A stretch of DNA of 64,000 nt, taken from NCBI RefSeq assembly GCF_048403405.1, contig NZ_CP183129.1; one strand, given 5' to 3'. A program made the position numbers and the translations under genes. The DNA comes from Escherichia coli. Its GTDB lineage: Bacteria > Pseudomonadota > Gammaproteobacteria > Enterobacterales > Enterobacteriaceae. Of the stretch, positions 42,271 to 55,866 are shown in pieces. Every line of letters starts with the position of its first letter. The first letter of the stretch is position 1. Below the pieces are notes generated by a model that did no database searches, was not told where the DNA came from, and saw nothing but the letters and a program-made list of their open reading frames with translations.

Positions 42271-42313
42271 ATCTGACAAAATCAATATAAACAGCCCCTC
42301 CGGAGAGGGGCTG
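42271..42313 (-). terminator. intrinsic terminator (minus strand) upstream of lysis cassette
   Basis: Hairpin CAGCCCCTC-CGGA-GAGGGGCTG followed on minus strand by TTTATATTGATTTT. Confidence 0.5.
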
Positions 42314-42610
42314 GAGAGTGGCGCTATGTGCCATTGCATGGTGCCGGGTGCCTCCCGGTGAATTCAGTACCAGCACCTGAATCCGCGATTATCCCATATA
42401 CCTACTCGCTGATTGCCCCTCCGCACAGGGGGATTCACCATGCCAGTTTCTTTTAACAAACTCCCCGCAAACCAGACAACAGTCAACCGCCTGAATTGTG
42501 AAGTATTTAAAAATTTCTCCCGCTAACTGATACCCGGCTAACAGTCTGGCGTTTTCTTTTTCAGCAACGGGAAAGCAACAACCACCACACCCACCAGCCG
42601 CCCATTTACC

Positions 42611-45492: not shown

Positions 45493-45744
45493 TTATTCTT
45501 CTGAAAAAGCAGAAAAGCCAGCTTTTATTCCGATCTCTTTCAATGCCTGTAATGAAGTGACAAACTCACCGTCGTGCAAGATAAATCCGTCCGTCACTCG
45601 GGCATCCACAAAATTAATTAACGCAGCCCCATTTTTTTGCAAACACACAATGCGGTAATGGCTAACAATATTTCCATTTTCAACGCACACAGCATAGAGG
45701 CCATCTTCACAAAAAATTTTACGCAGTTCTTCGATGTTCATCAT
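45493..45744 (-). CDS. hypothetical protein (83 aa), possibly Rem-like by position
   Basis: 83-aa ORF between ydfU-like and hok, the position/size of Qin rem (sequence identity not verifiable from memory). Confidence 0.4.
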   Translation of the reverse strand: MMNIEELRKIFCEDGLYAVCVENGNIVSHYRIVCLQKNGAALINFVDARVTDGFILHDGEFVTSLQALKEIGIKAGFSAFSEE

Positions 45745-45960: not shown

Positions 45961-46116
45961 TTACTCCTCAGGTTCGTAAGCTGTGAAGACAGCGACCTCC
46001 GTCTGGCCGGTTCGGATTCGTACCTCGCAGAGGTCTTTCCTCGTTACCAGTGCCGTCACTATGACGGTTAAACAGATGACGATCAGGGCGATTAACATCG
46101 CCTTTTGCTGCTTCAT
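45961..46116 (-). CDS. hok: Hok/Gef-family type I toxin (51 aa)
   Basis: Translation MKQQKAMLIALIVICLTVIVTALVTRKDLCEVRIRTGQTEVAVFTAYEPEE is a canonical Hok-family peptide; not in the ORF track (below size cut-off). Confidence 0.85.
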   Translation of the reverse strand: MKQQKAMLIALIVICLTVIVTALVTRKDLCEVRIRTGQTEVAVFTAYEPEE

Positions 46117-46129
46117 AGCCTGCTTCTCC

Positions 46130-46230
46130 TTGACCTTTCGGTCCGTAAGAGGCTAATCTCTATGTGTCGCATAGATATGGCCTCAGATTAATGTTAAGCG
46201 TCTTGCAGGACGCGTAATGTTAACTGGGGC
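46130..46230 (+). ncRNA. sok: expected Sok-type antisense RNA / mok leader region of hok locus (location approximate)
   Basis: By analogy with hok/sok loci the antisense RNA overlaps the hok mRNA leader; exact ends not determined. Confidence 0.3.
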
Positions 46231-46374
46231 TTTTCTCTATCTGCCTTTTGGTGTTCATGCCTGAGACAGATAGCCTCAAGCACCCGCAGTTATTCTACTT
46301 AACTAAGATTTCCCCGCAAACCGTTTTTGTCCGGCACAGTAAATATCCAACTAAACCAATGGCGTTCGCTGTAT

Positions 46375-52319: not shown

Positions 52320-52842
52320 ACAAACCCCTGGCAGACATTTGTTTATCTGCAAAGTAATATTGATATTGCTGACGATACGCATGCTTGAAAGCAATAGCTT
52401 TTTCTATAAGCTCGTCAGTCTCACGTTCCACAACAGCTGGATCCGCAAAAAGCAGCCCGGACTCCACCACATCGCCATATTCTTTGTTTAATCCGGCGAT
52501 CATGTACGTAATGCTTTTTCCATCACTGATCTCACGATACAACCTGAAATCACTAATTCGGATAGCCTCCATAATTGCCGGAATCAGCGCCGTGAATTTT
52601 TTCCGCTTATCCCTGGTGTCGATAGCTTTCCAGCGTTCGAATATCTTCACCCGGTTAACGCCCAGCGCCCGTTGATCAACCTCGCCATCATTAAACGTGA
52701 CGCGTTGAACATCGATGTTCGGGCGTTCTTTCAGAGCCCAGAATGCTTCCGTGATTAATATCGTCGCTTGCTCCTGTGTCATTCCTGGTCGACATACCCA
52801 GGCATCCAGAGCCTCACAAACCTGTTCAGGGGTGATTTTCAT
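52291..52842 (-). CDS. hypothetical protein (183 aa) in cII position
   Basis: ORF translationally coupled to cro-like gene, upstream of O. Confidence 0.4.
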   Translation of the reverse strand: MKITPEQVCEALDAWVCRPGMTQEQATILITEAFWALKERPNIDVQRVTFNDGEVDQRALGVNRVKIFERWKAIDTRDKRKKFTALIPAIMEAIRISDFRLYREISDGKSITYMIAGLNKEYGDVVESGLLFADPAVVERETDELIEKAIAFKHAYRQQYQYYFADKQMSARGLYEYRCTTMG

Positions 52843-53053
52843 TGTTCAACCGCCCCGCCCGCTTTGCCTTACGATATTCGTCATAAACTTTGGGGTCGTA
52901 CTGAAGTTCCCCGCCGGATGCCTCCTGTAGACGCATCGCGCGACCTTCAGGAACCAGTTTCCCCCATGCAGCAACGCTTGCCAGCCTAACTCCTGCGGCA
53001 TTGGCAAGCTTTGTTTTGCTGCCAAAAAACGCTATAGCATCAATTTTCAACAT
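52826..53053 (-). CDS. dicC: Cro-like regulator (DicC-like)
   Basis: 75-aa ORF divergent from repressor; sequence (FGSKTKLAxAAG.RLAS ... LVPEGRAMRLQEASGGELQYDPKVYDEY) matches recalled DicC. Confidence 0.7.
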   Translation of the reverse strand: MLKIDAIAFFGSKTKLANAAGVRLASVAAWGKLVPEGRAMRLQEASGGELQYDPKVYDEYRKAKRAGRLNNENHP

Positions 53054-53129: not shown

Positions 53130-53537
53130 ATGAAAAACGAAACCTTCGGTGCTCGCCTCTTATACAGGCGTAAAAAATTAAAACTGTCTCAGGCCGCATT
53201 AGGTAAGCTGGTCAAAGTGGCTCACGTAACAATTTCTCAATGGGAAAGAGATGAAACACAGCCAGCGGGGAAGAGATTATTCGCACTGAGCCAGGCGCTT
53301 CAGTGCTCGCCGACTTGGCTTCTTTTTGGAGATGAAGATAAGCAACCAGGCGAACCGATCCCAGATAATCAGCCAGTTAATCTGACAGAAGATCAAAAAG
53401 AGTTGCTTCAACTGTTCGACGCACTGCCTGAGTCAGAGCAAAAGGCTCTGTTGTCAGAGATGCGTGCTCGAGTTGAGAATTTCAACAAACTTTTTGAAGA
53501 ACTACTCAAAGCTCGCAAAAGAAGCGCAAATAAATAA
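53130..53537 (+). CDS. dicA: prophage repressor (DicA-like, HTH-XRE, no S24 peptidase domain)
   Basis: 135-aa ORF; HTH (LSQAALGKLVKVAHVTISQWE); C-terminal SPTWLLFGDEDKQP ... LPESEQ ... EMRARVENFNKLFEELLKAR matches recalled DicA. Confidence 0.8.
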   Translation: MKNETFGARLLYRRKKLKLSQAALGKLVKVAHVTISQWERDETQPAGKRLFALSQALQCSPTWLLFGDEDKQPGEPIPDNQPVNLTEDQKELLQLFDALPESEQKALLSEMRARVENFNKLFEELLKARKRSANK

Positions 53538-53589: not shown

Positions 53590-53660
53590 GCTTGTGTTTT
53601 TTACATCAAAAAACTTAGGTTTTTCTACACAAAAAGCTTGACCATAATTCTTAGGTTATT
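53590..53660. promoter_or_regulatory. second operator/promoter region (CTTAGG repeats) downstream of repressor gene
   Basis: ACTTAGGTTTTTC ... CTTAGGTTATTC repeats with embedded TTGACC; likely promoter of the dicB-type operon. Confidence 0.45.
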
Positions 53661-53743
53661 CTAAATTCTACTCATCAAGACACCGCACGGTGTTCTCAGC
53701 AAACAGTTCCGCTACCCTGGCGTTAAGGGGAAATGAGGTCAGC

Positions 53744-53896
53744 ATGGATACTATCGATCTTGGCAACAACGAATCTCTGGTATGCGGCGTGTTTCCCAAC
53801 CAGGACGGCACGTTTACCGCGATGACGTATACCAGAAGCAAAACGTTTCAAACTGAAGCTGGCGCGCGTCGCTGGTTAACCAGAAACACTGACTGA
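53744..53896 (+). CDS. small protein, YdfA-like (50 aa)
   Basis: MDTIDLGNNESLVCGVFPNQDGTFTAM... with GAGG RBS; first gene after repressor as in the Qin dicB operon. Confidence 0.5.
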   Translation: MDTIDLGNNESLVCGVFPNQDGTFTAMTYTRSKTFQTEAGARRWLTRNTD

Positions 53897-53907
53897 TGAG
53901 GTTGACG

Positions 53908-54282
53908 ATGGAATTTAAAGATTTACCAGTACCATTCCAGGAAATGGCATCGAATGTGGTTCGCTCTCAACTGGCGACTCTTGACCTGAGTACCGTAGAA
54001 AAAGAAACCATCGATACTATATCCGGTAACGTGCGTCGTGCCTTTATCGGTCTGTACGAAGAGAAGCAGCTCTCTGATAACCAGGATTTACATGAAAAAT
54101 ACTTCCTGGAATTAATGGACATCATTAATAAAGGATTTGGCTTGTTAATGAAAAAGAAAGGGATTCGAATAGCTCCCCTTGAAAATCATTTTACAGCGAG
54201 CAGTATTAATTCCTGTGATTTAAAGCATCACACATCCGATGGGAAAGTTGAATCAAACAACAAAATATCAATTAATCATTAA
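53908..54282 (+). CDS. hypothetical protein (124 aa), AT-rich
   Basis: ORF with GAGG RBS before MEFKDL; no family recognised. Confidence 0.45.
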   Translation: MEFKDLPVPFQEMASNVVRSQLATLDLSTVEKETIDTISGNVRRAFIGLYEEKQLSDNQDLHEKYFLELMDIINKGFGLLMKKKGIRIAPLENHFTASSINSCDLKHHTSDGKVESNNKISINH

Positions 54283-54584
54283 TTTATTCACAGGTGAGGT
54301 AGAGTGCGTGCGCCGGACACGGATAAGAATCCGGCACTGACAGTTTACTAAAAAGGATATATCCCTGAAAAGTCAGGGCATAACACGAAAGCGCCCGGCG
54401 AAGTTAGTCTCTCTGTATAGGTCGTCGTTAAATTTAATTCGATCGTGCGCTTCCGGTTGTGGCAATCCGCGAAATGGCGCGGCGGTAAGTATGGCTGGGG
54501 TTTCCTCCATTGCTCCAGAAAATGCACCGGGTTGTCAGGTTGACCATACGCTTAAGTGACAGCCCCGCCACAATACCCATGTGT

Positions 54585-54637
54585 AGTCTTTGGTGGCATC
54601 AGTTCTACTCCGTGACTGCTCTGCCACCCTTTTTAAA
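54585..54637 (+). ncRNA. dicF: DicF-like small RNA (3' stem-loop/terminator region conserved)
   Basis: TTTGGTGGCATCAGTTCTACTCCGTGACTGCTCTGCCACCCTTTTT closely matches recalled DicF 3' portion, with compensatory stem changes GGCGG/CCGCC to GGTGG/CCACC. Confidence 0.55.
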
Positions 54638-54812
54638 GTGAATTTTGTGATGCGGTGAATGCGGCTAAGCGCACGCGGAACAGTTAAAACCAAAAACAGT
54701 GTTATGGGTGGATTCTCTGTATCCGGCGTTAATTGTTAACTGGTTAACGTCACCTGGAGGCACCAGGCACCGCATCAACAAAGTTCACTTCGGTGATGAA
54801 AGGTAAGAGAAA

Positions 54813-55667
54813 ATGTTGAATGTAGCTATTGAAAACCAGAACGGGTGGAATTATAGTGCACCTGCACCTCATAAAACGGGTGCCGGGCGTGGAAACCCGG
54901 AATTCAATCAAGCGCATAACCGCGCTCAGGCGGTTTTTTTATGCGTCAAGCACAGCCACATTCAGATTATGGTGGGGCGTGCAGGGCAGCTGCAAGGCTG
55001 GCCGGATTCTTGGTTGACCGGTATTTCCACCCCTGTACGCCTCACCACCCTTATGGTCGTGGAAAACCTTGGTGGTGAGTTATTAATACTCAACCAAGAG
55101 GCTGCCATTATGGCTACTATCCCTACCCTTTCTCACCCTGACGTAACCATCGAAAATGGTCGCGCTGTCACTACGTCTGTTGCGGTTGCAGAGTTCTTCC
55201 GCAAAATGCACAAGGACGTTCTGCGCAAAATTGAAACGCTAGAATGCTCTGAAGATTTTAACGAGCGCAATTTTACGCCCGTTACCTACACCGACGCCAA
55301 AGGCGAAAAACGCCCCATGTACCAAATCACCAAAAACGGCTTCGTTTTCCTGGTGATGGGGTTCACAGGTAAAAAAGCCGCAACTTTCAAAGAAGCCTAC
55401 ATCGCTGAGTTCGATCGCATGGAGGAAGAACTGCGCCAGAATAACGCCCCGTCTCCCGACAAAATGATTCACGGGGACGGACGCACCCTGGTTATCCGTC
55501 TCGACGAACACGGCAATATCAAATTCACTGAAACCGTTCCTGACGGCGCAATGGTCTGCACCCTGGATACCTTCCGGTTTTATCTGGAGAAACAAGGATG
55601 GACTCTTGTAAACCGGAGCGCAATTAAAAATATGACTGTGGAGCAATTGCTAAAAATTCATTGTTGA
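54813..55667 (+). CDS. Rha-family phage regulatory protein (possible antirepressor); start uncertain
   Basis: C-terminal 185 aa carry Rha-like motifs (AVAEFF.K.H..VLR.I ... MGFTGKKA..FKEAYI.EFDRMEEEL); alternative start at 55110. Confidence 0.65.
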   Translation: MLNVAIENQNGWNYSAPAPHKTGAGRGNPEFNQAHNRAQAVFLCVKHSHIQIMVGRAGQLQGWPDSWLTGISTPVRLTTLMVVENLGGELLILNQEAAIMATIPTLSHPDVTIENGRAVTTSVAVAEFFRKMHKDVLRKIETLECSEDFNERNFTPVTYTDAKGEKRPMYQITKNGFVFLVMGFTGKKAATFKEAYIAEFDRMEEELRQNNAPSPDKMIHGDGRTLVIRLDEHGNIKFTETVPDGAMVCTLDTFRFYLEKQGWTLVNRSAIKNMTVEQLLKIHC

Positions 55668-55677
55668 GGACGCGATA

Positions 55678-55866
55678 ATGGAAACGTCACTACCAAACGT
55701 TAATACGTCTGACGGGTGCTTTAATATTGGTGTTCTGCTCAGTAACAGGGATTTCACCGAGGATGCAATCAATATGAGAAAATATGAACCCTACCTGCTG
55801 AATGACAATTCCATACTCTCCAGAATTGCCCTTCTTAAACTCGGTATTTTCGGAGAGTGGCGATGA
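55678..55866 (+). CDS. dicB: DicB-like cell division inhibitor (62 aa)
   Basis: LPNVNTSDGCFNIGV..SN..FTEDAINMRK matches recalled DicB; follows DicF-like RNA. Confidence 0.7.
   Translation: METSLPNVNTSDGCFNIGVLLSNRDFTEDAINMRKYEPYLLNDNSILSRIALLKLGIFGEWR

What the first reader, a model, noticed from the sequence alone, without database searches (positions are those of the whole stretch)
54560..54640. DicF-like sRNA with conserved 3' stem but divergent 5' segment
Downstream of the 128-aa ORF, the sequence TTTGGTGGCATCAGTTCTACTCCGTGACTGCTCTGCCACCCTTTTT matches, as far as I can recall it, the 3' two thirds of DicF (the Qin cell-division-inhibitor sRNA), including compensatory base changes that preserve the terminator stem. 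The upstream segment differs from the recalled K-12 DicF 5' end, which could change target range. Its operon context (dicA/dicC-like, ydfA-like upstream, dicB-like downstream) supports the call.
Basis: partly seen in the sequence, partly recalled or inferred. Interest (0 to 1): 0.55.

Follow-up and report, generated by a model that had tools for sequence, protein, structure and literature searches.

The report
DicF small RNA with swapped 5′ arm
This is a genuine copy of the well-known prophage small RNA DicF, which blocks cell division by silencing ftsZ, but its 5′ arm has been replaced by one shared with Rac-prophage relatives, so one known target (xylR) is predicted to be lost.

Summary
Window 54578-54629 (+) matches Rfam DicF (RF00039) end to end at 61.1 bits (threshold 48; K-12 dicF scores 76.7). 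The terminator hairpin, the U5 tail and the ACUCCG anti-Shine-Dalgarno loop are conserved. The stem carries one true compensatory change (C-G to U-A) and one U-G to C-G change.

The first ~12 nt differ from K-12, and 14 nt just upstream are missing, including K-12's RNase E site. The new 5′ arm, UGUGUAGUC, is not random decay. It recurs in a second DicF class upstream of kil in Rac-like prophages, and in the K-12 Rac sRNA KilS, which I find to be a sub-threshold DicF homologue.

Predicted pairing:
- pykA and manX sites are kept.
- ftsZ pairing is kept but weaker.
- The 13-bp xylR pairing of K-12 DicF falls to chance level.

The gene sits in a DicA/DicC-controlled early operon of an intact-looking lambdoid E. 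coli prophage next to potC. An isrK–C4–Rha module lies between dicF and dicB. The identical 90-nt stretch occurs in 152 chromosome or plasmid records from 5,426 complete E. coli genomes.

Verdict: a known family with an undescribed seed-swapped allele. Expression, the mature 5′ end and any new targets are untested. Interest is modest.

The parts
54578..54634 (+). dicF gene (DicF sRNA, 'class B' allele): Rfam match 54578-54629 plus the U5 tail 54630-54634. The true 5′ end is unknown.
   Evidence: Rfam RF00039, 61.1 bits against a gathering score of 48, model positions 1-52 of 52. Fold -15.8 kcal/mol, z = -2.45.
54580..54588 (+). Alternative 5′ arm (seed) TGTGTAGTC. It replaces K-12's TTTCTGGTGACG.
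   Evidence: Alignment with K-12. The same 9-mer occurs in class C DicF upstream of kil and in K-12 KilS, where the sequence further upstream is unrelated.
54592..54628 (+). Terminator/scaffold hairpin. Outer stem 54592-54598 pairs with 54622-54628. Inner stem 54600-54603 pairs with 54615-54618.
   Evidence: Rfam structure line. Pair counts 98.6% standard pairs; C-G to U-A at 54594/54626 and U-G to C-G at 54597/54623.
54604..54614 (+). Loop TCTACTCCGTG containing the anti-Shine-Dalgarno ACTCCG (54607-54612). This is the region that pairs with the ftsZ and pykA ribosome-binding sites in K-12.
   Evidence: Identical to K-12 except one U to C at 54605. Duplex predictions: pykA -22.9 against -23.0, ftsZ -24.4 against -29.2 kcal/mol.
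54283..54577 (+). Qin-type untranslated leader between the 124-aa ORF and dicF. It is conserved at the position inferred for the 5′ end of K-12's 190-nt precursor. It lacks the 14 nt that carry K-12's RNase E site.
   Evidence: The whole 54290-54830 stretch aligns with K-12 at 86% column identity. K-12 processing is described in PMC10448788.
54641..54782 (+). Conserved non-coding spacer downstream of dicF (the dicF–dicB leader). It resembles STnc100. RefSeq calls 54699-54782 a partial DicB pseudogene.
   Evidence: Rfam STnc100, 38 bits, below its gathering score of 47. Nearly identical to the K-12 dicF–dicB spacer. Annotation.
54787..55654 (+). Module inserted relative to K-12 Qin: isrK (54864-54940), C4 antisense RNA (54965-55052) and a Rha/antirepressor-family ORF (probable start 55110, stop 55667).
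   Evidence: Rfam isrK 69.2 bits and C4 78 bits. PHROG Rha and anti-repressor families. Junction alignment.
55678..55866 (+). dicB (62 aa cell-division inhibitor).
   Evidence: 64% identical to K-12 DicB. RefSeq annotation. phrog_1251.
53130..53537 (+). DicA-like repressor (135 aa, helix-turn-helix).
   Evidence: 63% identical to K-12 DicA over 131 aa. PHROG repressor families.
52826..53053 (-). Cro/DicC-like regulator, divergent from the repressor gene.
   Evidence: RefSeq 'Cro/CI family'. phrog_409.
53638..53667 (+). Promoter-like site (TTGACC-18-TAAATT) ahead of the ydfA-like gene. It is a candidate equivalent of dicBp.
   Evidence: Consensus scan only. Its role is inferred from its position.
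53744..54282 (+).
   Evidence: RefSeq annotation. phrog_751 and phrog_6937.
45493..45744 (-). rem, homologue of the Qin antirepressor that derepresses dicBp in K-12.
   Evidence: RefSeq 'protein Rem' in the collinear prophage of strain 7/2. Rem's function is described in PMC10448788.

Best explanation
This is a real dicF gene. It encodes a trans-acting, Hfq-type small RNA in the early (DicA-repressed) operon of an intact-looking lambdoid E. coli prophage integrated next to potC.

**Expression (inferred from K-12).** The RNA should be made when the DicA-like repressor is relieved, for example by the prophage's own Rem antirepressor. Its 3′ end should be set by its own hairpin and U5 terminator.

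**What is conserved.** The loop and 3′ arm keep the residues that pair with ftsZ, pykA and manX in K-12. The RNA should therefore still repress ftsZ translation and inhibit division, perhaps less strongly.

**What has changed.** The single-stranded 5′ arm has been exchanged by recombination for a different conserved module, UGUGUAGUC. That module is otherwise found in Rac-type DicF and KilS RNAs. This removes the pairing with xylR and may redirect the 5′ arm to other, unknown mRNAs.

**Basis.**
- Shown here: family membership, structure, mosaic origin, and loss or retention of predicted pairing.
- Inferred: expression, processing, Hfq dependence and the regulatory outcomes.
For: - **Family membership.** Rfam DicF full-length hit at 61.1 bits against a threshold of 48. 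K-12 dicF scores 76.7 and the class C allele 60.9.
- **Structure.** The hairpin is supported by pair counts, including C-G to U-A, and by the fold.
- **Context.** A DicA-like repressor (63% identical), DicB (64% identical), a ydfA-like gene and a Cro-like gene are present. Rem is present.
- **Two arm types.** In about 115 DicF loci from IMG/VR the 5′ arm falls into two types. TTTCTGGTGAC is found in 91 loci. TGTGTAGTC is found in 23 loci with two unrelated upstream flanks: 11 with a Qin-type leader (counting the window itself) and 12 with a Rac-type leader.
- **Shared seed.** The same seed is in K-12 KilS and in a Citrobacter braakii homologue.
- **Pairing with the 5′ arm.** K-12 with xylR: -19.7 kcal/mol, 1 of 300 shuffles. 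Window allele: -9.8, 174 of 300 shuffles.
- **Pairing with the loop and 3′ arm.** pykA -22.9 against -23.0. manX -28.1 against -28.9. ftsZ -24.4 against -29.2.
- **Published basis.** In K-12, xylR pairs with the 5′ end and ftsZ with the 3′ region; pykA was validated with the DicF23 mutant, which also impairs ftsZ repression (PMC5069750). manX pairs with the 3′ end (PMC5861419).
- **Spread.** The exact 90-nt stretch occurs in 152 chromosome or plasmid records from 5,426 complete E. coli genomes, so it is a stably propagated allele.
Against: - There are no expression data for this allele.
- The 14 nt that carry K-12's RNase E site are missing, and I see no RN↓WUU-type site (my recollection of the RNase E motif; read by eye) at the new boundary. 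A short DicF-like species may not be produced, or it may have a different 5′ end.
- Predicted ftsZ pairing is about 5 kcal/mol weaker. In a co-fold that accounts for intramolecular structure, the optimum for this allele is not the canonical ftsZ duplex.
- No target was found for the new arm. It pairs with yncL, the RIL-seq partner of KilS, only at chance level (-9.9; 146 of 300 shuffles). Nothing in the window is complementary to it.
- The compensatory stem change is a single event.
Confidence: 0.78

Rival explanations
1. The 5′ change is a neutral recombination or deletion scar with no regulatory meaning. The RNA acts only through its conserved loop and 3′ arm. Alternatively, only a long precursor of about 176 nt accumulates because the RNase E site is gone, and the new 5′ arm has no targets of its own.
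For: - The RNase E site region of K-12 is deleted.
- No target was found for the new arm: yncL pairing is at chance level and nothing in the window is complementary.
- Lambdoid immunity regions are mosaic, so junctions can fall anywhere.
Against: - The 9-mer TGTGTAGTC is kept almost unchanged in three contexts whose upstream sequences are unrelated. These are the Qin-type leader, the Rac-type leader and KilS, and it also occurs in Citrobacter.
- An RNase E cleavage site mapped in KilS lies 7-8 nt upstream of the seed, which would leave the seed in a processed RNA.
- In K-12 the 5′ arm is functionally important for xylR regulation and toxicity (PMC5069750).
Confidence: 0.17
2. The element is only an intrinsic terminator or attenuator between the upstream ORFs and dicB. 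It is a decayed dicF remnant with no trans-acting function.
For: It ends in a hairpin plus U5, as any terminator does. RefSeq annotates no ncRNA here. No expression data are available.
Against: - The 11-nt loop, including the anti-SD ACUCCG, is conserved to within 1 nt of K-12, although a terminator needs no specific loop.
- KilS shows what a decayed loop looks like, and it scores below the Rfam threshold at 39.1 bits. This allele scores 61.1.
- The predicted pykA and manX duplexes are unchanged.
Confidence: 0.04
3. The resemblance to DicF is due to chance.
For: None.
Against: E = 6e-11 over the 64-kb window, above the curated threshold. The flanks are syntenic with and 86% identical to the K-12 dicF region.
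Confidence: 0.01

Closest known systems
DicF sRNA of the Qin cryptic prophage, E. coli K-12 (Rfam RF00039)
   Same: - Same family by covariance model, with the same hairpin and U5 terminator and the same ACUCCG loop.
- Same Qin-type leader and downstream spacer (86% identical over the aligned stretch).
- Same operon logic: DicA/DicC switch, ydfA-like gene, dicB and Rem.
- Predicted pykA and manX pairing is unchanged.
   Different: - The 5′ arm is UGUGUAGUC instead of UUUCUGGUGACG.
- The 14 nt carrying the RNase E site are absent.
- xylR pairing is lost and ftsZ pairing is about 5 kcal/mol weaker.
- Stem pair C-G is replaced by U-A.
- Scores 15.6 bits lower (61.1 against 76.7).
- dicB is displaced by an isrK–C4–Rha module.
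- The prophage looks complete rather than cryptic.
Rac-type DicF ('class C') upstream of kil, e.g. E. coli 2013C-4974 (unnamed in the records I saw)
   Same: Same 5′ arm (A/G/T)TGTGTAGTCTTTGG. Same loop start, CAGTTCTACTCCGTG. Rfam DicF score 60.9 bits.
   Different: - The upstream leader is Rac-type (…AACGACATTGCT).
- The downstream gene is kil, not dicB.
- The stem is GGCGGC/GCCGCC.
- The 3′ side of the loop is GGCTGCC rather than GACTGCT.
- It was found full-length in 86 complete E. coli genomes.
KilS sRNA (b4833) in the kilR 5′ UTR of the K-12 Rac prophage (Bar et al. 2021, PMC8175672)
   Same: It shares the seed UGUGUAGUC and the GGCGGCAUCAG…CUGAU-CCGCC-U5 hairpin and U-tail scaffold. The sequence after the terminator is also homologous. 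It is a sub-threshold DicF homologue (39.1 bits, E = 2e-5).
   Different: - The KilS loop lacks the ACUCCG anti-SD, so no ftsZ-type pairing is expected.
- It is 98 nt long, with its own mapped transcription start and an internal RNase E site.
- It lies upstream of kilR.
- Its RIL-seq partner yncL pairs with the KilS arm (-14.7 kcal/mol; 13 of 300 shuffles) but not with the window's arm.
Multiple dicF copies of EHEC O157:H7 (Melson & Kendall 2019, as cited in PMC7873438)
   Same: These are prophage-borne extra DicF copies in one genome. Carrier genomes of this allele also hold other DicF-family loci (2-3 places per record).
   Different: O157:H7 genomes match the window's 90-nt dicF stretch only at 74% identity, with the K-12-type 104-nt span. 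Their best copy is therefore K-12-type rather than this allele (H28 and H29). The original paper was not available to check its alignment.

Membership tests
DicF (Rfam RF00039) | Covariance-model score at or above the curated gathering score, over the full length | tested here: met
   61.1 bits against 48, model positions 1-52 of 52, E = 6e-11. K-12 control scores 76.7 bits.
DicF (Rfam RF00039) | 3′ hairpin with internal loop followed by a U-run (Rho-independent terminator, an Hfq-type 3′ end) | tested here: met
   Fold -15.8 kcal/mol, z = -2.45. 98.6% of stem cells are paired across 26 variants, with C-G to U-A in this allele. U5 at 54630-54634.
DicF (Rfam RF00039) | Loop and 3′ arm complementary to the ftsZ ribosome-binding site | tested here: met
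   ACUCCG is conserved. The predicted duplex at ftsZ -29..+4 is -24.4 kcal/mol against -29.2 for K-12. This is a prediction only, and the pairing is weaker.
DicF (Rfam RF00039) | Position inside a dicBF-type operon, downstream of ydfA-like ORFs and upstream of dicB, under a DicA/DicC switch | tested here: met
   An ~870-bp isrK–C4–Rha insertion lies before dicB.
DicF (Rfam RF00039) | K-12-type 5′ arm that pairs with xylR | tested here: not met
   K-12 arm: -19.7 kcal/mol at xylR +7..+21 (1 of 300 shuffles). Window arm: -9.8 at an unrelated site (174 of 300). This feature belongs to the K-12 allele, not to the Rfam family definition.
DicF (Rfam RF00039) | 5′ end made by RNase E cleavage of the polycistronic transcript | tested here: inconclusive
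   The K-12 cleavage context (…AUCAAU↓UUUCUGG) is deleted or replaced. I saw no comparable motif by eye. An experimental 5′ end is needed.
DicF (Rfam RF00039) | Expressed, Hfq-bound small RNA that causes filamentation and lowers FtsZ synthesis | not testable with these tools
   Requires Northern blot or RNA-seq, Hfq co-immunoprecipitation, and reporter and microscopy assays.
KilS (K-12 Rac sRNA) | Location in the kilR 5′ UTR with a Rac-type leader and its own transcription start | tested here: not met
   The window has a Qin-type leader and dicB downstream. The simple scan found no promoter-like site directly upstream of dicF.
KilS (K-12 Rac sRNA) | 5′ seed UGUGU(G)UAGUC | tested here: met
   Alignment A2. 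The seed is at window 54580-54588.
KilS (K-12 Rac sRNA) | Pairing with its RIL-seq partner yncL | tested here: not met
   KilS arm: -14.7 kcal/mol (13 of 300 shuffles). Window arm: -9.9 (146 of 300).

The most novel reading that the evidence does not exclude
DicF-family prophage sRNAs are modular. A shared hairpin-terminator scaffold, with or without the anti-ftsZ loop, is combined by recombination between Qin-type and Rac-type immunity regions with one of two conserved 5′ seeds. On this reading, the window's allele joins the KilS/Rac seed to the DicF loop in a Qin-type operon. The prophage would keep division inhibition but drop xylR control and gain a different, still unknown set of host targets. 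As a corollary, the 'orphan' K-12 sRNA KilS is a DicF paralogue that has lost the ftsZ-binding loop.
Probability: 0.4. Interest if true: 0.55.

Novelty: new variant of a known kind. Interest (0 to 1): 0.36.

Why it matters
DicF is one of the few prophage sRNAs with validated host targets in cell division, sugar use and glycolysis, and in EHEC virulence. In K-12 the 5′ arm is responsible for xylR control and for much of DicF's toxicity.

A naturally occurring allele keeps the ftsZ-binding loop but carries a different, conserved 5′ arm. It is present in a few percent of complete E. coli genomes and is absent from the deposited phage genomes searched. It is a ready-made natural experiment on how prophage sRNAs are re-targeted by recombination.

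It also ties KilS, an sRNA with no known function, to the DicF family. In practice, annotation pipelines would label all of these 'DicF', or miss them altogether, although their regulons probably differ.

It remains a variant of a well-known family. Nothing here overturns current understanding.

Tried and rejected
- **yncL as a target.** I tested whether the new 5′ arm targets yncL, the RIL-seq partner of KilS. The KilS arm pairs modestly (-14.7 kcal/mol; 13 of 300 shuffles), but the window's arm is at chance level. I do not propose yncL as a target.
- **Targets inside the window.** I searched the 64-kb window for complements of the seed with up to 3 mismatches. Only the gene itself and chance-level hits were found.
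- **Full-length duplex folding.** Unrestricted duplex folding of the sRNA against targets gave over-long, meaningless duplexes. I replaced it with windowed folding per arm.
- **Genome-wide target prediction.** This was not possible.
- **Distribution across species.** A scan of 100,044 species-representative genomes for seed plus stem returned only KilS-type loci: the E. coli representative genome, two MAG contigs carrying the identical sequence, and Citrobacter braakii. The other matches were unrelated. The DicF classes with this seed therefore appear confined to E. coli strains.
- **Deposited phages.** No deposited phage genome carries this allele.
- **Papers not held.** Melson & Kendall 2019, Murashko & Lin-Chao 2017 and Faubladier & Bouché 1994 could not be read. 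From memory, the 1994 paper reported dicF-like sequences in Rac and other prophages, so the homology between Rac and dicF regions may have been noted before at DNA level. I could not check this.
- **PHROG test of the Rha start.** The PHROG match of the 99-aa N-terminal 'extension' of the Rha ORF does not decide whether it is coding, because PHROGs are built from the same gene calls.

Full report
**1. The observation**

The quoted sequence lies at window 54589-54634 on the + strand. A scan of the whole window with all Rfam families gives a full-length DicF match (RF00039) at 54578-54629. It scores 61.1 bits against a gathering score of 48, with E = 6e-11 (alignment).

I aligned 54290-54830 with the K-12 Qin dicF region (fetched, aligned). 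Column identity is 86% overall.
- From TTTGG to the T-run only four positions differ.
- Two of these form a true compensatory pair: C-G in K-12 becomes U-A at 54594/54626.
- One turns a U-G pair into C-G (54597/54623).
- One is U to C in the loop (54605).
- The 12 nt before TTTGG are unrelated: CATGTGTAGTCT here, TTTCTGGTGACG in K-12.
- 14 nt present just upstream in K-12 (CTCTGTTATCAATT) are missing.

The 57-nt RNA folds into the DicF hairpin at -15.8 kcal/mol, z = -2.45. On 26 distinct DicF sequences, the Rfam structure has 98.6% standard pairs, against 26-70% when partners are slid. The double change is one event, so it is consistent with the structure rather than independent proof.

**2. 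Where it sits**

The window is E. coli. The 501 bases around the site are 100% identical in the 20 best-matching complete genomes listed, and 129 records match at 99% identity or better. Window 34300-60460 is collinear with a prophage of strain 7/2, with 3 mismatches.

That prophage looks complete. It has terminase, portal, lysis genes, Q, hokD/sok, replication genes, a Cro/repressor pair, exonuclease, excisionase and integrase, and it abuts potC.

The local order is as follows.
- Cro/DicC-like gene (52826-53053, - strand)
- DicA-like repressor (53130-53537; 63% identical to K-12 DicA)
- DUF1391 (ydfA-like) gene (53744-53896)
- 124-aa ORF (53908-54282)
- ~295-nt leader
- dicF
- ~150-nt conserved spacer
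- isrK, C4 antisense RNA and a Rha/antirepressor ORF
- dicB (55678-55866; 64% identical to K-12 DicB)
- DUF1482 gene
- exonuclease

Relative to K-12, the isrK–C4–Rha block (about 54787-55654) is an insertion about 24 nt before the dicB start. The prophage also carries rem (45493-45744, - strand). In K-12, Rem is the antirepressor that relieves DicA repression of the operon (PMC10448788).

**3. The 5′ arm is a second conserved module, not decay**

I scanned IMG/VR for the conserved DicF loop and recovered about 115 DicF loci.
- 91 loci have the K-12 arm, TTTCTGGTGAC(G/A/T)TTTGG.
- 11 loci (counting the window itself) have the window's arrangement, which I call class B: …CACAATACCC-ATGTGTAGTC-TTTGGTGGC.
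- 12 loci form class C: …AACGACATTGCT-(A/G/T)TGTGTAGTC-TTTGGCGGC. They have the same 9-mer arm, but the upstream sequence is unrelated.

Class B always has the Qin-type leader and dicB downstream, with or without the isrK module. Class C always has a Rac-type leader and no dicB. In a complete genome, class C lies upstream of kil.

A search of complete E. coli genomes with class C showed that K-12 strains match only its first 89 nt, inside Rac. That K-12 stretch is the annotated sRNA KilS (b4833) in the kilR 5′ UTR.

The four-way alignment shows what KilS retains and what it lacks.
- It has the seed (TGTGTGTAGTC).
- It has the GGCGGCATCAG…CTGATGTCCGCC-T5 hairpin and U-tail scaffold.
- It has the same downstream spacer.
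- Its loop lacks ACTCCG.

With the DicF model, KilS scores 39.1 bits (E = 2e-5, below threshold). A Citrobacter braakii homologue scores 43.2 and class C scores 60.9.

Bar et al. 2021 detected KilS by Northern blot and RIL-seq, with yncL as partner. They list a transcription start at its 5′ end and an RNase E site 7-8 nt upstream of the seed (PMC8175672). That paper does not mention DicF, and no held paper mentions both names.

The window's dicF is therefore a mosaic: Qin-type leader, Rac/KilS-type seed, DicF loop, and Qin-type 3′ loop side and spacer.

**4. Frequency**

- The exact 90-nt stretch (identity 99% or higher) is in 152 chromosome or plasmid records from the 5,426 complete E. coli genomes. 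Another 55 records match at 95-99%.
- K-12-type loci dominate, at about 3,260 records.
- Full-length class C is in 86 genomes, and KilS-type loci are in roughly 1,670.
- Carrier genomes hold 2-3 DicF-family places.
- O157:H7 genomes match the window's 90-nt stretch only at 74% with the K-12-type span, so their best copy is K-12-type rather than this allele.
- None of 50,697 deposited phage genomes has this allele.
- Among 100,044 species-representative genomes, seed plus stem occurs only as KilS-type loci: in the E. coli representative genome, on two MAG contigs carrying the identical sequence, and in Citrobacter braakii.

**5. Consequences for pairing (predictions)**

Published genetics for K-12 show the following.
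- The 3′ region pairs with ftsZ.
- pykA pairing was validated with the DicF23 mutant, which also impairs ftsZ repression.
- The 3′ end pairs with manX.
- The 5′ end pairs with xylR.
- A 5′-arm mutant (DicF3) loses xylR and pykA regulation and much of the toxicity.

These results come from PMC5069750 and PMC5861419.

I ran windowed duplex folding against the K-12 target regions. All energies are in kcal/mol.

| Target | DicF region | K-12 | Window allele |
|---|---|---|---|
| xylR | 5′ arm | -19.7 at +7..+21 (13 bp) | -9.8 at an unrelated site |
| pykA | loop | -23.0 | -22.9 |
| manX | 3′ arm | -28.9 | -28.1 |
| ftsZ | loop and 3′ arm | -29.2 | -24.4 |

A shuffle test places the K-12–xylR value in the extreme tail (1 of 300) and the window allele at chance (174 of 300).

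In a co-fold that charges for opening the sRNA, the optimum for the window allele is not the canonical ftsZ duplex. ftsZ repression is therefore likely but not assured.

I found no target for the new arm. Its pairing with yncL is at chance level, whereas the KilS arm reaches -14.7 (13 of 300). Nothing complementary lies in the window.

**6. Processing**

In K-12, RNase III makes a 190-nt species and RNase E makes the 53-nt species from the operon transcript (PMC10448788). In the window the leader is conserved at the position I infer for the 5′ end of the 190-nt species, but the RNase E context is gone. I saw no comparable motif at the new boundary. This was judged by eye against RN↓WUU, which is my recollection of the RNase E preference. 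The mature 5′ end is therefore the main unknown. The simple scan found no promoter-like site directly upstream of dicF, and it did find candidates for the operon promoter and for isrK.

**7. Verdict**

What is new is modest but specific.
- The allele carries an alternative, conserved 5′ arm shared with Rac-type DicF and with KilS.
- The arm is predicted to abolish xylR control while keeping the ftsZ, pykA and manX sites.
- The comparison shows KilS to be a DicF paralogue.

I rate it a new variant of a known kind, with interest of about 0.36. The decisive work is experimental: mapping the 5′ end, reporter assays with swapped arms, and a genome-wide target search.

Noticed in passing
L128 1406-1503 (-) = NC_000913.3 1418405-1418502; compare window 54580-54634: The K-12 Rac sRNA KilS (b4833) is a sub-threshold DicF homologue (Rfam DicF 39.1 bits against a threshold of 48, E = 2e-5). 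It has the same 5′ seed as the window's DicF and the same hairpin and U-tail scaffold, but its loop lacks the ACUCCG anti-SD. No held paper mentions KilS and DicF together. Citrobacter braakii ATCC 51113 has the same type (L136 4182-4233, 43.2 bits).
   Followed up: partly
window 54787-55654: An ~870-bp module is inserted between the dicF spacer and dicB relative to K-12 Qin. It comprises isrK (54864-54940), C4 antisense RNA (54965-55052) and a Rha/antirepressor-family ORF. It is flanked by imperfect repeats, CAAAGTTCA and AAAAATTCA. About half of the class B loci in IMG/VR have it, and three have dicB directly after the spacer.
   Followed up: partly
window 54813-55667 (+): The RefSeq 'Rha family' CDS (284 aa) runs straight across the isrK and C4 RNA genes. 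An internal ATG at 55110, preceded by AAGAGG, gives a 185-aa protein covering the whole Rha/Ant homology and looks like the likelier start. A promoter-like site, TTGAAA-17-TATAGT (10 of 12), at 54829-54857 sits just before isrK.
   Followed up: partly
window 54699-54782 (+): RefSeq annotates a 'partial DicB, missing C-terminus' pseudogene here. The stretch is the conserved non-coding dicF–dicB spacer, also present in K-12, and it does not resemble the DicB N-terminus. It is probably an annotation artefact.
   Followed up: partly
window 42283-42472 (-) and 54641-54782 (+): A full-length STnc100 (RF02076, 132 bits) lies between the Q antiterminator gene and the lysis genes, on their strand. A weaker STnc100-like stretch (38 bits) directly follows dicF. 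Similar stretches follow dicF or KilS in K-12 Qin, K-12 Rac and the class C locus (28-50 bits). This suggests a shared structured leader element in two prophage operons.
   Followed up: no
window 46114-46285 (-) and 13061-13259 (-): A sok antitoxin RNA (106.7 bits) lies next to hokD in the same prophage. An IS009 RNA element hit (225 bits) lies further left in the window.
   Followed up: no
L132, L135, L139, L131, L134 (genome-contig hits): Two contigs filed under non-enterobacterial MAG names ('Proteobacteria bacterium', 'Candidatus Nanosynbacter') carry sequence identical to the E. coli Rac KilS region, which suggests E. coli contamination of those bins. Three Dehalococcoidia/Chloroflexi hits are unrelated chance matches to the pattern.
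   Followed up: no
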